From the NCBI RefSeq assembly GCF_003790525.1, contig NZ_CP033635.1: a stretch of DNA of 64,000 nt, one strand, 5' to 3'. Numbering within the stretch: the stretch's first letter is position 1; each line of letters opens with the position of its first letter. The notes beneath the pieces were generated by a model. That model was given only the letters and a program-made list of their open reading frames with translations, was not told the origin of the DNA and did no database searches. The position numbers and the translations under genes are program-made. Source of the DNA: Escherichia coli (GTDB lineage: Bacteria; Pseudomonadota; Gammaproteobacteria; Enterobacterales; Enterobacteriaceae). Of the stretch, positions 11,118 to 56,909 are shown in pieces.

Positions 11118-11130
11118 CCCCCCCCCCCCC
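11118..11130. repeat. Homopolymeric C13 tract
   Basis: 13 consecutive C residues, about 165 bp upstream of the alpA-like start. Confidence 0.9.
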
Positions 11131-48731: not shown

Positions 48732-50138
48732 TTAATCCAGCCATTCAGTATGGAACACACCTTCTTTATCAATGCGCTTATAAGTATGCGCCCCGAAATA
48801 GTCACGCTGTGCCTGGATCAGGTTCGCAGGCAGAACAGCGGCACGGTAGCTATCGTAATAGGCAACCGCAGCGGCGAAGGTCGGAACCGGGATACCGTTC
48901 TGTACTGCATAAGCGACGACATCGCGCAGCGCCTGCTGGTAGTCATCGGCAATTTGCTTGAAGTACGGGGCCAGCAGCAGGTTAGCGATCTGCGGATTTT
49001 CGGCATATGCATCGGTGATTTTCTGCAGGAACTGCGCACGGATGATGCAGCCAGCACGGAAAATCTTCGCGATTTCGCCGTAGTTCAGATCCCAGTTGTA
49101 CTCTTCAGACGCAGCACGCAGCTGAGAGAAGCCCTGAGCGTAAGAAACGATTTTGCCCAGATACAGCGCACGACGAACTTTTTCGATGAACTCAGCCTTG
49201 TCGCCAGCTGGCTGCGCTTGCGGACCAGAGAGAACTTTAGATGCGGCAACGCGCTGATCTTTCAGAGAAGAGATATAACGTGCAAACACAGACTCGGTAA
49301 TCAGCGACAGCGGTTCTCCGAGATCCAGCGCGCTCTGGCTGGTCCATTTACCGGTACCTTTGTTAGCCGCTTCATCCAGGATCACATCAACCAGGTAGTT
49401 ACCGTCTTCATCTTTTTTAGTGAAGATGTCTTTGGTGATGTCGATCAGGTAGCTGCTCAGTTCACCGTTATTCCACTCGGTAAAGGTCTGTGCCAGTTCT
49501 TCGTTAGAGAGATTCAGGCCGCCTTTAAGCAGAGAATAGGCTTCAGCAATCAGCTGCATATCACCGTATTCAATACCGTTGTGAACCATCTTAACATAGT
49601 GACCTGCGCCATCGGCACCAATATAGGTAACGCATGGCTCCCCGTCTTCAGCCACTGCGGCGATTTTGGTCAGGATCGGTGCAACCAGTTCATAGGCTTC
49701 TTTCTGTCCGCCAGGCATAATGGAAGGACCTTTCAGCGCACCTTCTTCACCACCGGAAACACCGGTACCGATAAAGTTAAAGCCTTCTGCAGAAAGCTCA
49801 CGGTTACGACGAATGGTGTCCTGGAAGAAGGTGTTACCACCATCAATGATGATGTCACCTTTATCGAGGTATGGCTTGAGGGAATCAATAGCAGCATCCG
49901 TGCCTGCACCTGCTTTCACCATTAACAGGATGCGACGAGGCGTTTCCAGAGATTCAACAAACTCTTTCACCGTATAGTAAGGAACCAGTTTCTTGCCTGG
50001 ATTTTCGGCAATAACTTCTTCCGTCTTTTCACGGGAACGGTTGAAAATAGAGACGGTATAACCACGGCTTTCGATGTTGAGCGCAAGGTTGCGCCCCATC
50101 ACTGCCATACCGACGACGCCAATCTGTTGCTTTGACAT
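48732..50138 (-). CDS. gnd: 6-phosphogluconate dehydrogenase (decarboxylating)
   Basis: 468 aa [27 protein letters not shown]... matches Gnd. Confidence 0.95.
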
Positions 50139-50327
50139 TGTTTACTCCTGTCTGAGGTGCTCACCGCTGCAAATAAGCGGCTGAATATGAGTAACGGGTT
50201 TACTTCTAATATATTTAGGAAAGGCTTATCTCTCTATGTCCCAAAAACTAAACCTTTTGGATACATCGACTATCAGATCTAAAAGACATACATTTTATAA
50301 TATCAAAACCTAATAAAACCATTCTAA

Positions 50328-51083
50328 TTAAAGTCTCTTAGCAAGAGCTCTTACTGAATAAATAAAAAAAAGAACTAATGACTTGAATAATGAAAAAGAC
50401 AATACTCTTCTATAAATATTCCATTGCCACATAGCTGCAGTGAACTTATTTGAGGACAACCCCGTATTATGTATATAATATCTGGCAAGATTTTTCTGTA
50501 TGCAATAAACCAGCTTTGCTTTTTTTACTATTGTTAACCACATTAGGTAATCTTCATGACCAATTTCCTGTTGATATACTTTCCCTATCTGAGTTGAGTC
50601 ATAAATACCAGTTAAGTTACCAATATGATTAGATTGCAGCATATTATTATATGTAATAACTTCCTTAAACCTTCTTTCTTTTATTACATTTGTATCAGCA
50701 TAAAAAACCTCATAGTTTGAACAAACAACTTTATAATTTCCAGCACTCAATATTTTCAGTTGTTCTTCGAGTTTAGTCTCAAACCAAACATCATCACTAT
50801 CACAAAATGCAATATATCTACCATTACAAGCAGCAATCCCAACATTTCTAGCCGAAGATACTCCCTTACCATTTCGATTTAGTAAATAAACAATACGTTC
50901 ATCGATAATAGACTTAATAATATGTTCTGTTGAATCCGACGAATTATCATTGATTATATATAATTTAAAATCCTCATACGTTTGTTTTAAAATTGACAAA
51001 ATACTATCTTTAATAGTTTCTTCAGCATTATAAGCTGGCATAATTATTGATACTGTTTCATTACCCATAAAAAGCCCCATCAT
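50328..51083 (-). CDS. Family 2 glycosyltransferase (O-antigen)
   Basis: IIMPAYNAEETI and DSDD motifs; AT-rich; start uncertain among three N-terminal Met codons. Confidence 0.8.
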   Translation of the reverse strand: MMGLFMGNETVSIIMPAYNAEETIKDSILSILKQTYEDFKLYIINDNSSDSTEHIIKSIIDERIVYLLNRNGKGVSSARNVGIAACNGRYIAFCDSDDVWFETKLEEQLKILSAGNYKVVCSNYEVFYADTNVIKERRFKEVITYNNMLQSNHIGNLTGIYDSTQIGKVYQQEIGHEDYLMWLTIVKKAKLVYCIQKNLARYYIHNTGLSSNKFTAAMWQWNIYRRVLSFSLFKSLVLFFIYSVRALAKRL

Positions 51084-51092
51084 TATTCAAAA

Positions 51093-52175
51093 TTAGAACA
51101 AGTATGATTTATAATAAAATTCTGCGATAGGAAACAGAATAACCTTTAATAGATACGGAATAAAACAGTATAATAATGAGAGATACAAACAAACGAAGTA
51201 TCTATTCTTAACAGTGTATTTAATAACATAAATTATCGGGATTATATAAAATATCACAAAATAGTAGTTAACCCTTGAAATAAAATCAAAACTGAGCATT
51301 AACAAATAAACATTCACCGTTAAAGCCCACATACCAATTAACTTTCGCTCATTATCTTTTATAACAAAAACCTTTAGTTTTAATAAGATAAGGAATAGCA
51401 AATTAAATGGAATCCAATACATTTTAGTTAGTACATTCATTATACTCACAGAACTTTCATCGAATGAGGATAAATAATGTGAGTAATAGGGGAATAAATT
51501 TTGCACTATATAATAAATAATTTGCTGAAGATAAGAGAAAAGAAACAATAAAAAAGTCAACACATAAATTTTAAAAGCATGTTTACACGCAAAAAAATAC
51601 GTCTTATCTGGAATTACGAGAAAACAGAAACCAATCAAAGCAGAGCGATGAAAACCTAAAGCAGCAACCATTAATATGAAAGATAACAATAATTTCCCTC
51701 TAAACTTATAGAGAATTGATATTGCAAACAAATAAATTGAAAATGATGCTCTTATTATATTCATCTGGGTATGAAATAAATTAGTAACAACCCAAAAAAG
51801 AAAAAAAACCAAAACAAGAGAATAACCATAGTTTTTCCATAACTGAAAAACAATAACAAACACCAATAAAGATTGTAATAAAGCAGTTAACGCAATAAAA
51901 CCTTTGAATCCCCATCCAGTCAGTTGATATAGCCTCATATATCCATAAAAGAGATATTCCTTATTTTGATAAAAGGTATCGAGTTCATTAGCATTATTAT
52001 ATATATTTTGATAGCTAAAATAATCTGTTCCAACACCGTATTGAAATGCTGGCAACAGAGTCATAAAAAAAACGCATATGCCCCCGATAATTATTTTCCC
52101 ATAAGGAATACGATTATATGCATTAAACAAAAACATATAAAAAAGCACAATAGTATTAATTATAATATATATCAT
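51093..52175 (-). CDS. wzy: O-antigen polymerase Wzy (EpsG-like)
   Basis: 360-aa highly hydrophobic polytopic protein, AT-rich, inside the O-antigen cluster. Confidence 0.7.
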   Translation of the reverse strand: MIYIIINTIVLFYMFLFNAYNRIPYGKIIIGGICVFFMTLLPAFQYGVGTDYFSYQNIYNNANELDTFYQNKEYLFYGYMRLYQLTGWGFKGFIALTALLQSLLVFVIVFQLWKNYGYSLVLVFFLFWVVTNLFHTQMNIIRASFSIYLFAISILYKFRGKLLLSFILMVAALGFHRSALIGFCFLVIPDKTYFFACKHAFKIYVLTFLLFLFSYLQQIIYYIVQNLFPYYSHYLSSFDESSVSIMNVLTKMYWIPFNLLFLILLKLKVFVIKDNERKLIGMWALTVNVYLLMLSFDFISRVNYYFVIFYIIPIIYVIKYTVKNRYFVCLYLSLLYCFIPYLLKVILFPIAEFYYKSYLF

Positions 52176-52858
52176 TTTTCTGCAATAAAAAGACGTTCAG
52201 CTTCGATAGAACTAGAGTTTAAATTTACAGGATGAGAAAAGTATTGACCATAAAATACATTATCCAGTTTCGCATTTCTTACAATGTAACTCCAGTCATC
52301 ACAAAAGAAACTATTTTCTTCCATTAACCTCAGAATTCTCTCAGCGCCTTTAATATCCACACAATAACAGCATGTCCTATATAACCAACGATGTGTACCT
52401 AATATTACTTTTCGCACCCCACATATTGATTTTCTCCCCATTATGACACGACTAAAGCTTTTTAGACCATCCTGTCCACCCAAAATATAGACACTTGATG
52501 AGCAGAATGAATTAATCATTTCGTCCAAATATTTAACATTTTCCTTGGGCAAAACGTCATCTTCCAAAACCACCAACCATTTCCTTCCACTCGCCAAAAA
52601 TTCCGTTAAAGCTTTTTTATGACTCAAGAAACATCCCAATTCCGACGGAGTTAAAAAACCTCTTCCAAACATCTTTGAGGACCTAATTTTAAATAAAGAA
52701 AAGTATTTTTCTGCCAATAATTTCCGTCCATCAATAGCATGAGAAACACGACATTCTATGTCATACTTCGCCATTTCATTTTTTAATTTATCTCTCCTTT
52801 CATTATGTTGAGGTAATGATATTATACAAAAGTCAACAAGTTTTCTTTTCATTCTCAC
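52172..52858 (-). CDS. Family 25 glycosyltransferase (LPS/O-antigen)
   Basis: N-terminal CIISLPQHNERRDKL... pattern typical of GT25 (Lic2B/LgtB-like). Confidence 0.65.
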   Translation of the reverse strand: MRMKRKLVDFCIISLPQHNERRDKLKNEMAKYDIECRVSHAIDGRKLLAEKYFSLFKIRSSKMFGRGFLTPSELGCFLSHKKALTEFLASGRKWLVVLEDDVLPKENVKYLDEMINSFCSSSVYILGGQDGLKSFSRVIMGRKSICGVRKVILGTHRWLYRTCCYCVDIKGAERILRLMEENSFFCDDWSYIVRNAKLDNVFYGQYFSHPVNLNSSSIEAERLFIAEK

Positions 52859-53664
52859 TTCCTTTTACTGGACAGTTGTTTTAATCTTTTATAAAAATAT
52901 GAAAGCATATATCTTATAACTGTTATGAATGCAAGACAAAATGCATTATTTAGGGACGTTCTGTAAACCTCCAGAGCAAGCTCAACTATTTGTTTTGGTG
53001 TATATTTATATCCCCGTCCATAGGATATTTTAATTTGAGACCCTCCCAGAGTTCTCACAGAAATTAGCGACATAACAGAAATTAGTTTTAGTTTTAATGG
53101 TATATCTTCCCCCCAAGTCAAATATCTTATTTTATAAGCATCAATGATTTTATTTCTACGATACAACGTATTAGATTGATTCCAACCAAGAGTAAATTGC
53201 TTTGGATACCCTAAACACTCTATACATTCTTGTATTAATCCTCTGTTATATTTTTTTATTGTGAAAATATTACCTGTCTCGTTTTTACAATTAAACTCTT
53301 CCACATAATCACTTCTAAAGACGATGGCATCAACCTCATTATTTTCTAATAAATAATTAACACCCCAATCAAGAGCAAATTCAGCAATATAATCATCAGT
53401 ATCAAGAAAAAAACAAAATTCTGTATCTGAATCCAATAAGCCTACATATCTTGCGTGAGAAGGGCCTTGATTAAGAGTATAGGTGTAATTACACCCGTAA
53501 TTATTACAAATAATTTTATTTTTGCGCGCTTCATCAGAAACTGAACCATCATCAATTACAAAAATCTTACACTGCTTATAGCTACTGATTATTTTAATAT
53601 TTTCCTCTAATATTATGCTCGAATTATAAGTTGGTATTATTATTGATATTCTTTTATTATTCAT
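52855..53664 (-). CDS. Family 2 glycosyltransferase (O-antigen)
   Basis: ISIIIPTYNSS and DTDD motifs. Confidence 0.8.
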   Translation of the reverse strand: MNNKRISIIIPTYNSSIILEENIKIISSYKQCKIFVIDDGSVSDEARKNKIICNNYGCNYTYTLNQGPSHARYVGLLDSDTEFCFFLDTDDYIAEFALDWGVNYLLENNEVDAIVFRSDYVEEFNCKNETGNIFTIKKYNRGLIQECIECLGYPKQFTLGWNQSNTLYRRNKIIDAYKIRYLTWGEDIPLKLKLISVMSLISVRTLGGSQIKISYGRGYKYTPKQIVELALEVYRTSLNNAFCLAFITVIRYMLSYFYKRLKQLSSKRK

Positions 53665-53672
53665 TCTATTGC

Positions 53673-54467
53673 CTATTTATTGTATTTTACGTATATGGCT
53701 TTCTTTGTGTTATAAAGGTTTTTAACATAGGATAACCGTTTAACATGCAAGTAAAGGGGTTTAATGATAGTTTTTACCCTGACGGTTGATTTATCCCACA
53801 TTAACTGTTCATATAATTCGCCATCACAATATTTCAGACCCAGTGAACGTTTATATAAAAACAGCTCATTGCTCATCCACTTCCCAAAAAACTCTAACCC
53901 TCGAAAAACGACACCATCATAATTTTTTGCTATCTGCTTTTGCAAAATATCAACACCGTATGCCGAAAAAATATAATGGGCATCGACTTTCATTAAATAA
54001 TCACAATCACCTAAAGAAAAACTAAAATTATAAAATTCGGCCAGTGAACCATCTCCCTTTGTCACCTGATCTTTATACCCTTCTCCAGCAATAGCGAGAT
54101 TTTTATCATAAGAGTAAAGTTGTATAGAGCAAACATCAGCTAATTGATTCGATAATCTTTCTACAATATCTCTTGTATTATCTGTAGAATTATTATCTAC
54201 AACAATTATTTGTGATGCTAACCCCGAAATAGACAATATAGATGCCTCTATATATTCAGATCCGTTTTTGACTCTATATATAACAGAGACACTTGGTATT
54301 TTCCTCTTATATTCATTCTGTTTTCTTAGCTTAGCTGCAACATAATCATCAAAATCTAACCGATTGGAGTACTTCTTATCGTTTTTCGCAGATAAAAAGG
54401 AAATAGTAAAAAGATAGTAATGAAAAGATAAAATTAACTTTTTTAAAATAGAATATAAACTCATCAC
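53673..54467 (-). CDS. Glycosyltransferase, GT2-like
   Basis: VSVIYRVKNGSEYIEASILSI...VVDNNSTDNT pattern; DXD-like VDAH. Confidence 0.6.
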   Translation of the reverse strand: MMSLYSILKKLILSFHYYLFTISFLSAKNDKKYSNRLDFDDYVAAKLRKQNEYKRKIPSVSVIYRVKNGSEYIEASILSISGLASQIIVVDNNSTDNTRDIVERLSNQLADVCSIQLYSYDKNLAIAGEGYKDQVTKGDGSLAEFYNFSFSLGDCDYLMKVDAHYIFSAYGVDILQKQIAKNYDGVVFRGLEFFGKWMSNELFLYKRSLGLKYCDGELYEQLMWDKSTVRVKTIIKPLYLHVKRLSYVKNLYNTKKAIYVKYNK

Positions 54468-55738
54468 TTTATCACTCGATTAAACAATAAAATACAGTAA
54501 ATCAATGGGATTATATTAATCAATGACACGACAATTAACTTAGACACAGCTATTCCAACAACACCAAATATGTTAGTCAGATAAAATGTTATAACAAGAG
54601 ACGGTATAAGCATATATATATGCAATTTACTTATAAAACCTTGCCGATCACTCATATTTAAAAAAACATATACAGGGCAAAATATTGCATTAATAATCTG
54701 CGTCATAACTAAAATAATTAACACTTCGCTAGCATTACTGTATTGAACACCAAATATAGATAATATCAGCCCTGAAAAAAAGGGAAACAGAAGAGCCATT
54801 AAAACACATGGTATCATTATGAAGAACATAGCTTTTTTAGTTAGCTCTTTTATTTCATTCATTTTACTTTGGCTGTATAAACTGGCGACCTTAGGTGCCA
54901 GAATTGTGCTAATTGACATTGCAAATAAATTTATAACCAAGGATATTCTATCAGACACAGCAATAATAGCGACATCAGCAGCTGGGAGCAACAAACCGGA
55001 AAGTACAACATAAGATTGAACAATCAGCATTCCTAATGAGTTACCAATGAAATACTCTGATAATTCTTTCAGTCTAAACGGTATTGACTCTGTTTCTAAC
55101 CGATTGAAATCGTCCCTAAATTTATAATACGAGTATACCCCCCCCCCTCCTCCAATAAGAATAATTGAGAAGAAGTATGATAAAGACACCAGTAAAACAC
55201 TTTCATTTTTAATCAGAACAATAAGTAATACAAAAAAAATAAACAATAAGGGTTGAAATATATACTGCAGAACAACACTAAAAGTGACAAGACCTTGAGA
55301 CTGTAAAAAGGAATATAACAATATATTTACTGACGATGATATTATCAACAGAATCGCCAAACACCATGTATTTCGTAATAATAATTGTGGCGAAAAATAA
55401 TGAATTATAGGTATTAAAATGATAGATAAGATAATACTGGATATAACACTCCGTTTTATGCATCTAAGAAAAAAAACGCCTCGTGCTTTTAATGCATATT
55501 TAACTGAGGCACATTTTTTCAAAATTAAATTATTTTGTCCTAAAGAGGATAGGGACGATATTATTCCAGTTACTGATAATAGGAAGAAAACCCCACCAGC
55601 CTCACTCATATTGAGCGTTCTTGATATCATCACACTCGTTGACAGCGCAAGTATAGCGCCGAATATCCTCAACACAAATACAGTTTTAATTGTAAACATT
55701 AACTTCTCGTTATTTACCCAAAGACCTCTTTGCAACAA
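54464..55738 (-). CDS. wzx: O-antigen flippase Wzx
   Basis: 424-aa polytopic membrane protein; first gene after the JUMPstart; contains an internal G10 coding-strand homopolymer. Confidence 0.8.
   Translation of the reverse strand: MLQRGLWVNNEKLMFTIKTVFVLRIFGAILALSTSVMISRTLNMSEAGGVFFLLSVTGIISSLSSLGQNNLILKKCASVKYALKARGVFFLRCIKRSVISSIILSIILIPIIHYFSPQLLLRNTWCLAILLIISSSVNILLYSFLQSQGLVTFSVVLQYIFQPLLFIFFVLLIVLIKNESVLLVSLSYFFSIILIGGGGGVYSYYKFRDDFNRLETESIPFRLKELSEYFIGNSLGMLIVQSYVVLSGLLLPAADVAIIAVSDRISLVINLFAMSISTILAPKVASLYSQSKMNEIKELTKKAMFFIMIPCVLMALLFPFFSGLILSIFGVQYSNASEVLIILVMTQIINAIFCPVYVFLNMSDRQGFISKLHIYMLIPSLVITFYLTNIFGVVGIAVSKLIVVSLINIIPLIYCILLFNRVIK
55138..55147. repeat. Homopolymeric C10 tract (G10 on the wzx coding strand)
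   Basis: Ten consecutive C residues inside wzx, encoding part of GGGGG in IILIGGGGGVYSYY. Confidence 0.9.
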
Positions 55739-55786
55739 ATAATAGGGGGGAGGGTATAGATACTACCCCGCAAGACGCAAAAAACA

Positions 55787-55797
55787 ACGCTACCGCC
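55787..55797 (-). promoter_or_regulatory. ops element (GGCGGTAGCGT) of the JUMPstart region, RfaH-dependent antitermination site
   Basis: Plus-strand acgctaccgcc is the reverse complement of GGCGGTAGCGT, 49 bp upstream of wzx on the transcribed strand. Confidence 0.7.
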
Positions 55798-56009
55798 CCT
55801 GGCTTAACAGCTACCAGTTCACTAACACAAACTTATAACATGGCAATCTTAATAAATTCGTCTCTAATAAAACAAGAGACCGTTTTCTAAATCACATGAA
55901 GCAAAAAATCACCATAAAAGATCTAAACATCATCTGATATTTTAAACATTAGCTTAGATAATCGGTTGACGACTTTCATATTACTATTTTCTCCCGCCTT
56001 TTATCTTCA

Positions 56010-56909
56010 TTAAAAATCATTTATAATTATTTCTTCTATTTTACCACGGAATTTTGTGCCTAGCATAATGTTTCTCAAACCATACTTCACAAACGCCTGC
56101 ATATAGCCCATTTTTTTGCCGCAGTCGTAACTGTCGCCAGTCATCAGCATTGCATCCACAGCATGTTTTTTCGCCAGTTCGGCAATGGCATCAGTCAGTT
56201 GAATACGTCCCCATGCACCAGGCTGAGTACGTTCCAGTTCCGGCCAAATATCGGCAGAAAGCACATAACGACCTACGGCCATGATATCTGAGTCCAGCGT
56301 CTGCGGCTGATCCGGTTTTTCGATAAATTCAACAATGCGGCTGACTTTACCTTCGCGATCCAGCGGTTCTTTGGTCTGAATGACGGAGTATTCAGAGAGA
56401 TCGCCCGGCATACGTTTTGCCAGCACCTGGCTGCGTCCCGTTTCATTGAAGCGCGCAATCATAGCGGCAAGATTGTAGCGCAGCGGGTCGGCGCTGGCGT
56501 CATCGATAACAACGTCCGGCAATACCACGACAAATGGGTTGTCACCAATGGCCGGTCGCGCACACAAAATGGAGTGGCCCAGACCTAAAGGTTCGCCCTG
56601 ACGCACGTTCATAATGGTCACACCCGGCGGGCAGATGGATTGAACTTCCGCCAGTAGTTGACGCTTCACGCGCTGTTCAAGAAGAGATTCTAATTCATAA
56701 GAGGTGTCGAAGTGGTTTTCGACCGCGTTCTTGGACGCGTGAGTTACCAAGAGGATTTCTTTGATCCCTGCAGCCACAATCTCGTCAACAATGTACTGAA
56801 TCATTGGCTTGTCGACAATCGGTAGCATCTCTTTGGGAATCGCCTTAGTGGCAGGCAACATATGCATCCCAAGACCTGCTACCGGTATAACTGCTTTTAA
56901 ATTCGTCAT
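56010..56909 (-). CDS. galF: UTP-glucose-1-phosphate uridylyltransferase paralog GalF
   Basis: 299 aa [43 protein letters not shown]... matches GalF. Confidence 0.9.

What the first reader, a model, noticed from the sequence alone, without database searches (positions are those of the whole stretch)
55138..55147. G10 homopolymer inside the O-antigen flippase gene wzx: possible phase-variation switch
Ten consecutive G on the coding strand encode part of a five-Gly run in wzx. Tracts this long are prone to slipped-strand mispairing, and a 1-bp change would frameshift the flippase and block O-antigen export. The frame is intact here. It could instead be a homopolymer sequencing artefact.
Basis: seen in the sequence. 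Interest (0 to 1): 0.5.

Follow-up and report, generated by a model that had tools for sequence, protein, structure and literature searches.

The report
G10 slippage hotspot in O21 wzx
The ten-G run is real and is the normal, in-frame state of the E. coli O21 O-antigen flippase gene; it is also where that gene most often appears broken in public genomes (one G missing in about 1-2%), so it is a mutation hotspot and not a demonstrated on/off switch.

Summary
Confirmed: C10 on the + strand at 55138-55147 is G10 on the coding strand of a 411-aa wzx (54464-55699, minus strand). It encodes Gly185-187 of a Gly183-187 run plus the first base of Val188. The gene is the E. coli O21 O-antigen flippase in a galF-gnd cluster.

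G10 is not an artefact of this window. It is present in 31 of 34 complete O21 genomes and in at least 2,500 public contigs. It is lineage-specific: the syntenic Salmonella homologue has GGT AGC GGT GGG TTA.

The tract is the gene's main site of inactivating variation. G9 alleles (200-aa truncation) occur in 2 of 34 complete genomes, one of them an Illumina-based hybrid assembly, and on about 34-51 contigs. They sit on three wzx protein backgrounds (two main DNA haplotypes) and several flanking backgrounds. G8 and G7 were each seen once; G11 was never seen. Minus-one alleles at the T8 runs of the same gene are 6-8 times rarer.

Contigs often break at the tract, so some G9 calls may be errors. 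About 98% of alleles are ON, E. coli has mismatch repair, and wzx loss is toxic in K-12. Best reading: a slippage-prone hotspot that yields occasional, potentially reversible flippase-null variants. An evolved phase switch is unproven.

The parts
55138..55147 (-). G10 homopolymer (C10 on the + strand). Covers codons 185-187 (GGG GGG GGG) plus the first base of Val188 (GTA).
   Evidence: Expected by chance 0.03 per window.
55139..55153 (-). Five-glycine run Gly183-187 (GGA GGA GGG GGG GGG). It lies in the C-terminal part of predicted TM6 (model helix 168-200), just before the low-confidence inter-lobe linker 198-220.
   Evidence: hydropathy; AlphaFold2 model, mean pLDDT 75.5.
54464..55699 (-). 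wzx, the O21-family O-antigen flippase, 411 aa, MOP-superfamily fold. The window allele carries R200 where all 34 complete genomes have Q200 (SNP at 55101).
55096..55098 (-). TAG stop reached in the -1 frame. A G9 allele ends here and gives a 200-aa product containing TM1-6 only.
   Evidence: The sequence was read. The G9 product was found in public assemblies.
55122..55124 (-). TAA stop reached in the +1 frame. A G11 allele would give a 192-aa product; this product was never found in public data.
   Evidence: The sequence was read.
53673..54464 (-). First downstream glycosyltransferase gene. Its ATG overlaps the wzx TGA by one base (TGATG), the layout expected for translational coupling.
50328..56909 (-). 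The O21 O-antigen operon that holds the tract: galF (56010-56909), wzx, three glycosyltransferase genes, wzy (51093-52175) and a GT2 gene (50328-51083). gnd lies just beyond at 48732-50138. G+C is about 0.30, against 0.48 for the whole window.

Best explanation
The G10 run is a genuine, lineage-specific homopolymer in the E. coli O21 O-antigen flippase gene. G10 is the functional in-frame state carried by nearly all O21 strains. It is the longest mononucleotide run in the gene, so it is the preferred site of replication slippage. The usual product is a -1 (G9) allele that truncates Wzx after TM6 (200 aa) and removes the C-terminal lobe (TM7-12). That should stop flipping of Und-PP-linked O21 units and give O-antigen-deficient cells (inferred). 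Such alleles arise repeatedly on different backgrounds, but they stay rare and look like tip variants. Rare in-frame contractions (G7, giving Gly4) are tolerated in annotation. A G9 allele could in principle revert by +1 slippage. So the tract behaves as a hypermutable hotspot that supplies standing wzx-null variation, not as a balanced, evolved ON/OFF switch.

Shown here: the tract, its frame, its modal length, its absence from homologues, and the recurrence and deletion bias of variants.

Inferred: slippage as the cause, the O-antigen phenotype, and reversibility.
For: G10 is present in 31 of 34 complete genomes and on at least 2,512 contigs carrying full-length alleles (P0024 1000, a capped count; P0001 868; P0006 623; P0003 17; minor alleles 4).

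G9 was verified in DNA in 30COLEC and AREA_492 and in L006-L013, L023-L026, L029, L031 and L032. G9 N-terminal products are on 20+14 contigs, and the matching C-terminal fragments are on 36+15 contigs.

G9 lies on both main DNA haplotypes and on the I98 and V98 protein backgrounds. It occurs with divergent galF (L009) and with a different upstream context (L011).

AREA_492 (G9) differs from FDAARGOS_536 (G10) over 8.3 kb only by the missing G and one wzy SNP.

wzx is the only pseudogene in 45 kb around the tract in both G9 genomes. 30COLEC was assembled with Unicycler from NovaSeq plus MinION reads. One G9 SPAdes contig has k-mer coverage 48.

Control: -1 alleles at the two T8 runs of wzx are on 6 and 4 contigs, and those at the T7 runs on 0-1.

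The deletion bias fits measured poly-G behaviour: in C. jejuni, G10 to G9 occurs at 17.9e-4 against 3.7e-4 for G10 to G11 (PMC3401435). In E. coli the indel rate rises exponentially with run length (PMC8510543).

The Gly run is not conserved. Salmonella (64% identity, syntenic cluster) has GSGGL, encoded GGT AGC GGT GGG TTA, and Citrobacter has ISVCML.
Against: No raw reads were available, so each G9 call could be a homopolymer error.

Many draft assemblies break or gap exactly at the tract. Partial proteins start at K193 (27+3 contigs) or end at G184 (5 contigs), L027 has an N-gap there, and L030 starts just after it. Short-read data are therefore troubled, or heterogeneous, at this site.

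Two different G9 haplotypes come from neighbouring ENA accessions (ERZ27269409 and ERZ27269481). Pairs of G9 assemblies also come from single NCBI projects. This hints at batch effects.

One G9 contig has coverage of only 3.5.

A wzx null should be harmful (PMC11813082), yet no suppressor is visible within the O-antigen cluster of the G9 genomes.
Confidence: 0.58

Rival explanations
1. Evolved contingency locus. The G10 tract is maintained by selection as a reversible slipped-strand switch that turns O21 O-antigen export OFF (G9) and ON (G10) at high frequency, for example to escape O-antigen-specific phage or antibody.
For: The tract length matches classical poly-G phase-variable genes, where the modal length is G9-G10 in C. 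jejuni (PMC3401435). It sits in a surface-glycan gene. The codon choice is unusual: three consecutive GGG, where GGG makes up only 2 of the other 15 Gly codons of wzx, giving p of about 0.002. The tract is derived in the O21 lineage and kept on all main haplotypes. G9 recurs on several backgrounds, including uncultured gut metagenomes. There is an E. coli precedent: a reversible A7-to-A6 frameshift in kpsC that also occurs in natural isolates (PMC13410964).
Against: About 98% of alleles are ON, and OFF alleles look like rare tips. There is no G11 and no spread of lengths as seen in true contingency loci. E. coli has MutS/MutL repair, which keeps G10-G12 switching near 1-3e-5 even in meningococci. 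A wzx block with ongoing O-unit synthesis inhibits growth in K-12 (PMC11813082), so an early glycosyltransferase would be a far cheaper switch point. Frequency at the tract is only 6-8 times that at ordinary T8 runs of the same gene. No reversion has been observed.
Confidence: 0.15
2. The tract is biologically stable at G10, and the G9, G8 and G7 alleles in public assemblies are sequencing or assembly errors at a long G homopolymer.
For: Only contractions are seen, as expected from PCR stutter and nanopore undercalling. Contigs often break or gap at the tract. Several G9 calls cluster in single projects. One contig has low coverage of 3.5. The T8 runs also show a -1 excess, mostly in automatically assembled Logan contigs. 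The G7 allele exists in a single record.
Against: G10 is called correctly in at least 2,500 contigs made with the same technologies. 30COLEC is an Illumina-based Unicycler hybrid in which wzx is the only pseudogene in 45 kb. A G9 SPAdes contig has coverage 48. G9 appears in assemblies from NCBI, ENA, JGI and Logan made with MEGAHIT, SPAdes and other tools. A real deletion bias at G10 is documented in vivo.
Confidence: 0.22
3. The G10 in this window is itself a miscall of a shorter or interrupted run.
For: None beyond the general error-proneness of homopolymers.
Against: The identical G10 with an intact frame is found in 31 of 34 independent complete genomes, in one JGI metagenome contig and in thousands of contigs. 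A shorter run other than G7 would break the frame.
Confidence: 0.02

Closest known systems
Poly-G/C contingency loci in surface-glycan genes of Campylobacter jejuni and Neisseria meningitidis (Bayliss et al. 2012, PMC3401435)
   Same: A G run of 8-12 nt inside the reading frame of a surface-polysaccharide gene. A ±1 change truncates the product. Longer tracts (G10-G11) mutate mainly by -1, matching the pattern of G9 far outnumbering G11 seen here.
   Different: Those tracts vary widely in length within and between strains and switch at 1e-5 to 1e-3 per division, and C. jejuni lacks MutS/MutL. Here about 98% of alleles are G10, the host is mismatch-repair-proficient, no rate has been measured, and the gene is a flippase rather than a transferase.
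Reversible A7-to-A6 frameshift in kpsC of E. coli K96 (group 3) capsule (PMC13410964)
   Same: Same species. A homopolymer in a surface-polysaccharide gene, with spontaneous -1 frameshift mutants. The same frameshift is present in natural isolates, and the authors call it rare slipped-strand mispairing.
   Different: For kpsC, loss and reversion were shown experimentally; here they were not. The kpsC tract is A7 and shorter. Capsule export there is ABC-dependent, so there is no Wzx or Und-PP dead-end problem.
Homopolymeric tracts as gene-inactivation sites, e.g. L. monocytogenes inlA A7 (Orsi et al. 2010, PMC2831843)
   Same: Recurrent, independent -1 events at one homopolymer produce truncated alleles in natural populations.
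   Different: That study found poly(A/T) tracts over-represented and poly(G/C) tracts generally under-represented. It also found a bias towards the 5' end of genes, whereas this tract is mid-gene (codon 185 of 411).
Wzx (WzxB) O-unit flippases of the MOP superfamily and Und-P sequestration (PMC11813082; WzxE structure PMC11706664)
   Same: Same protein family and same genomic position. The predicted fold matches MurJ, WzxE and MATE. The truncation removes the C-terminal lobe.
   Different: In K-12, a wzxB null with O-unit synthesis switched on is growth-inhibitory. Natural G9 O21 genomes show no suppressor within the cluster, so how they tolerate the allele is unexplained.
E. coli O21 / Salmonella enterica O38 related O-antigen clusters (Li et al. 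2011, cited in PMC7685785)
   Same: The syntenic cluster found here in Salmonella (L017) has the same gene order and a Wzx that is 64% identical.
   Different: The Salmonella gene has no homopolymer at this site (GGT AGC GGT GGG TTA). I did not confirm that L017 is serogroup O38.

Membership tests
Wzx O-unit flippase (MOP superfamily) | Encoded in the galF-gnd O-antigen cluster together with wzy and glycosyltransferases | tested here: met
   The ORF map and NCBIfam hits identify galF and gnd. RefSeq annotation of the identical locus gives wzx, wzy and four glycosyltransferase genes.
Wzx O-unit flippase (MOP superfamily) | Sequence membership (Pfam Polysacc_synt / MatE; near-identity to named O21 wzx) | tested here: met
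   Pfam MatE 1e-5 and Polysacc_synt 8e-5, both weak. The gene is 99.6-99.9% identical in DNA to 'O21 family O-antigen flippase' in 34 genomes. There was no NCBIfam HMM hit.
Wzx O-unit flippase (MOP superfamily) | Multi-helix (12-TM type) two-lobe MOP fold | tested here: met
   AlphaFold2 model with pLDDT 75.5 and pTM 0.75. Foldseek top hits are MATE, MurJ and WzxE, with query-normalised TM-scores of 0.66-0.77 for the best MATE, MurJ and WzxE hits.
Wzx O-unit flippase (MOP superfamily) | [quoted passage not shown] | not testable with these tools
   This needs genetics or biochemistry.
Simple-sequence-repeat contingency locus (slipped-strand phase variation) | A repeat tract long enough to slip (about 8 nt or more for mononucleotides), placed so that ±1 changes gene expression | tested here: met
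   G10 is in frame at codon 185. G9 gives a 200-aa product and G11 a 192-aa product.
Simple-sequence-repeat contingency locus (slipped-strand phase variation) | Tract-length polymorphism among closely related isolates, with both ON and OFF lengths | tested here: inconclusive
   G9 occurs in 2 of 34 complete genomes and on about 1-2% of contigs, on several haplotypes. G8 and G7 were each seen once, and G11 never. OFF alleles are rare and artefacts are not excluded.
Simple-sequence-repeat contingency locus (slipped-strand phase variation) | High-frequency reversible switching (about 1e-5 per division or more, in both directions) | not testable with these tools
   No rate data exist for this tract. 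By analogy, mismatch-repair-proficient meningococci switch G10-G12 tracts at 1-3e-5 (PMC3401435).
Simple-sequence-repeat contingency locus (slipped-strand phase variation) | Length heterogeneity within a clonal population | not testable with these tools
Frequent contig breaks at the tract are compatible with heterogeneity or with sequencing error.
Simple-sequence-repeat contingency locus (slipped-strand phase variation) | The OFF state is viable and gives a selectable phenotype | not testable with these tools
   The literature predicts a cost from UndP sequestration (PMC11813082). The G9 genomes have otherwise intact clusters.
Homopolymer sequencing artefact (of the window itself) | The tract length is not reproduced in independent assemblies | tested here: not met
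   The same G10 is found in 31 of 34 complete genomes and in at least 2,500 contigs.

The most novel reading that the evidence does not exclude
The O21 wzx G10 tract is a true contingency locus in a mismatch-repair-proficient Escherichia coli. It would give reversible slipped-strand switching of O-antigen export at the flippase step. The OFF (G9) state would be tolerated in the gut through some undescribed relief of Und-PP-O-unit accumulation, such as polarity on the translationally coupled downstream glycosyltransferases or back-up flipping by WzxE or WzxC.
Probability: 0.15. Interest if true: 0.6.

Novelty: new member of a known kind. Interest (0 to 1): 0.33.

Why it matters
If the G9 alleles are real, a single predictable hotspot explains most natural inactivation of the O21 flippase. 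Three consequences follow.

- Genotype-based O-typing (wzx/wzy detection) would call such strains O21 although they may be rough or untypeable.
- The hotspot gives a simple genetic handle on how wild E. coli tolerate a wzx block that is toxic in K-12.
- It would add a second E. coli example, after kpsC, of homopolymer-driven and potentially reversible loss of a surface polysaccharide in a species not usually credited with slipped-strand phase variation.

There is also a practical point. The tract is a place where draft assemblies of O21 strains break or miscount, so 'frameshifted wzx' annotations need read-level checking.

Tried and rejected
- An NCBIfam scan of Wzx gave no family, and a PDB sequence search gave no hit. 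Membership therefore rests on RefSeq identity, Pfam and fold.
- A DNA pattern scan of JGI metagenome contigs, allowing any tract length, found a single contig (G10), so it gave no length distribution.
- Lee et al. 2012 (run-length indel rates in E. coli) is not held in the library. I used PMC8510543, which restates its result.
- I looked for suppressor mutations within galF-gnd in the G9 genomes. AREA_492 has none. 30COLEC has one private SNP near the 3' end of the last GT2 gene and no disrupted gene.
- I asked whether Gly5 is a conserved functional motif. It is not, because the homologues lack it.
- I considered that the two halves of a G9 allele could act as a split transporter. The called C-terminal ORF starts at M224, inside predicted TM7 (helix 218-237), so this is unlikely, and I did not pursue it.
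- I considered general assembly sloppiness in the variant genomes. It was rejected for 30COLEC, AREA_492 and CE0021a, where no other pseudogene occurs in 45 kb. It is plausible for CS5L, whose wzx is broken by a 2-nt loss in an A7 run and whose next-but-one glycosyltransferase gene, the second one downstream of wzx, is truncated.
- Literature searches for a described O21 wzx homopolymer or for wzx phase variation in E. coli found nothing specific.

Full report
**1. The observation**

The + strand at 55138-55147 is ten consecutive C. The reverse complement lies in an ORF on the minus strand (54464-55738 from the first TTG). With the RefSeq-style ATG at 55699 this ORF encodes 411 aa.

The local reading is CTT ATT GGA GGA GGG GGG GGG GTA = L-I-G-G-G-G-G-V. 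The G10 therefore covers codons 185-187 and the first base of Val188, and the frame is open. A 10-mer of G or C is expected 0.03 times in shuffles of the window.

**2. What the gene is**

- The 1,275-nt stretch is 99.6-99.9% identical to a gene annotated 'wzx: O21 family O-antigen flippase' in 34 of 5,426 complete E. coli genomes.
- The neighbourhood is the classical O-antigen locus: galF (56010-56909), wzx, three glycosyltransferase genes, wzy (51093-52175), a GT2 gene, then gnd (48732-50138). G+C is about 0.30 against 0.48 for the window.
- Pfam gives weak MatE (1e-5) and Polysacc_synt (8e-5) matches.
- An AlphaFold2 model (pLDDT 75.5, pTM 0.75) matches the MOP-superfamily transporters MATE, MurJ and WzxE, with TM-scores of 0.66-0.77 for the best hits.
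- In the model and in a hydropathy plot, Gly183-187 sits in the C-terminal part of TM6 (helix 168-200). It lies directly before the low-confidence inter-lobe linker (198-220) and TM7 (218-237).
- The wzx stop overlaps the ATG of the next glycosyltransferase gene (TGATG).

**3. Is G10 the true length?**

Yes. A 120-nt query spanning the tract matches 31 of the 34 complete genomes at 100%, with G10. The window itself differs from all 34 only by a C/T SNP at 55101, which gives R200 instead of Q200.

In the 15-billion-protein collection the full-length (G10) products are on the following numbers of contigs:

| Allele | Contigs |
|---|---|
| P0001 | 868 |
| P0006 | 623 |
| P0003 (the window allele) | 17 |

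One JGI metagenome contig also has G10. The idea that the window carries a homopolymer miscall is rejected.

**4. Is the tract conserved or functionally required?**

No. The closest non-E. coli homologue is a Salmonella Wzx (64% identity) in a syntenic cluster. It has GSGGL at this position, encoded GGT AGC GGT GGG TTA. A Citrobacter homologue (49%) has ISVCML. The homopolymer is therefore a derived feature of the E. coli O21 lineage.

Its codon choice is unusual. GGG accounts for only 2 of the 15 other glycine codons of wzx, so three in a row has a probability of about 0.002. This could reflect past slippage or selection; the data cannot tell which.

**5. Variation at the tract**

Three of the 34 complete genomes differ.

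- 30COLEC and AREA_492 have G9 and are annotated 'frameshifted'.
- CE0021a has G7, which is in frame with four glycines and is annotated intact.
- A fourth genome (CS5L) keeps G10 but has lost 2 nt in an A7 run elsewhere in the gene.

I computed the products expected for G6-G14 and looked them up exactly.

| Allele | Result |
|---|---|
| G9 N-terminal product, 200 aa | 20 contigs (I98 background) and 14 contigs (V98 background) |
| Matching 188-aa C-terminal fragments | 36 and 15 contigs |
| G8 product | 1 contig |
| G7 product | CE0021a only |
| G11, G12, G13 products | absent |

Every retrievable locus had nine G in its DNA: L006-L013, L023-L026, L029, L031 and L032.

SNP haplotypes over ±1.5 kb place G9 on both main DNA haplotypes. 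G9 also occurs with a divergent galF (L009) and with a different upstream context (L011). AREA_492 (G9) and FDAARGOS_536 (G10) differ over 8.3 kb only by the missing G and one wzy SNP. The -1 allele is therefore recurrent. Its frequency is roughly 1-2% of contigs, and 2 of 34 complete genomes.

As a control, -1 products at the two T8 runs of the same gene are on 6 and 4 contigs. The +1 products are on 1 contig each, and products at the T7 runs are on 0-1. The G10 tract accounts for about three quarters of the homopolymer frameshift alleles counted. It is 6-8 times more affected than a T8 run.

**6. Real mutations or errors?**

*For real mutations:*

- In 45 kb around the locus, wzx is the only pseudogene in 30COLEC and in AREA_492. 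CE0021a has none.
- 30COLEC was assembled with Unicycler from NovaSeq and MinION reads, so its consensus is Illumina-based (bioRxiv 10.1101/2021.02.19.431933).
- One G9 SPAdes contig has coverage 48.
- G9 appears in assemblies from four repositories and several assemblers, including uncultured gut metagenomes.
- The same technologies call G10 thousands of times.
- A deletion bias is what poly-G tracts of this length do in vivo. In C. jejuni, G10 to G9 occurs at 17.9e-4 against 3.7e-4 for G10 to G11 (PMC3401435).

*For errors:*

- Many draft assemblies end or gap exactly at the tract. Partial proteins begin at K193 (27+3 contigs), D196, G187 or I180, or end at G184 (5 contigs). There is an N-gap in L027, and L030 starts just after the run.
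- Two different G9 haplotypes come from neighbouring ENA accessions, and pairs of G9 assemblies come from single NCBI projects.
- One G9 contig has coverage of only 3.5.

I judge that at least some G9 alleles are real. Raw reads are needed to be sure.

**7. Mechanism and its likelihood**

The indel rate in E. coli rises exponentially with homopolymer length (PMC8510543). In mismatch-repair-proficient meningococci, G10-G12 tracts switch at 1-3e-5, rising to 2-8e-3 in mutS mutants (PMC3401435). By analogy, a G10 in E. coli should generate G9 cells at roughly 1e-6 to 1e-5 per division, and far more in mutators (inference).

A G9 allele stops at TAG 55098-55096 and yields TM1-6 only. O-unit flipping should then fail (inference).

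In E. coli K-12, a wzxB null with O-unit synthesis switched on inhibits growth, because undecaprenyl phosphate is trapped in dead-end intermediates (PMC11813082). An OFF state at wzx is therefore expected to be costly. That fits the rarity and tip-like distribution of G9. It leaves unexplained how the G9 genomes, whose clusters are otherwise intact, cope. Polarity on the translationally coupled downstream transferases, or back-up flippases, are possibilities, but they are untested.

**8. Comparison with what is known**

The anatomy is that of a poly-G contingency locus (PMC3401435). It also resembles the recently described reversible A7-to-A6 kpsC frameshift in the E. coli K96 capsule (PMC13410964).

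Two membership criteria for phase variation cannot be tested here: high-rate reversible switching and within-clone heterogeneity. The population pattern differs from classical contingency loci: about 98% of alleles are ON, only contractions are seen, and the frequency is only 6-8 times that of ordinary T8 runs.

I found no paper describing this tract. The O21/Salmonella O38 relationship is cited in PMC7685785.

**9. Verdict**

The tract is a real, slippage-prone hotspot, with natural frameshift alleles among isolates of the same serotype. It is not an artefact in this window. It has not been shown to be a phase-variation switch, and on the balance of evidence it probably is not an evolved one.
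- It is a new member of a known kind, of moderate to low interest (0.33).
- The most novel reading still open is a true contingency locus at the flippase step in E. coli. I give it a probability of about 0.15.

Noticed in passing
window 11118-11130: An intergenic C13 run, the longest homopolymer in the window. It lies about 165 nt upstream of a 68-aa helix-turn-helix regulator gene, inside a widespread island that also carries an inovirus Gp2-family gene, zinc-ribbon genes and IS150 nearby. The length or sequence of the run differs between genomes: C13 in strain 144, C7 in KW21, C6TC2 in DSM 103246, and AC6 in UCPROB-002.
   Followed up: partly
window 55101: The window's wzx carries a private SNP (C on the + strand) that gives R200 in the inter-lobe linker. 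All 34 complete RefSeq O21 genomes have Q200. The R200 allele (P0003, e.g. AYW31151.1) is on only 17 contigs.
   Followed up: partly
L011 1-1632 (Logan SRR29159022): In this contig the O21 wzx (G9) is preceded by a pyruvyl-transferase (PS_pyruv_trans) gene and a 90-aa ORF instead of galF. This suggests a rearranged or different upstream context.
   Followed up: no
L028 about 1340-1400 (ENA ERZ28585359 metagenome scaffold): A 73-nt deletion in wzx that begins after a repeated CTTATT motif and ends inside the G run, leaving nine G. It is either a second kind of lesion anchored at the tract or an assembly artefact.
   Followed up: partly
L005 (E. coli CS5L, NZ_CP158311) = window 54770-54776: This genome has wzx frameshifted by loss of 2 nt in an A7 run, not at the G10. 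The second glycosyltransferase gene downstream of wzx is truncated. This is probably a less accurate assembly.
   Followed up: partly
window 50000-56000: The O-antigen cluster has about 30% G+C, against 48% for the window. Its genes are tightly packed, with overlapping stop and start codons (TGATG at wzx/GT, and 4-nt overlaps further on). This is typical of horizontally acquired O-antigen operons.
   Followed up: no
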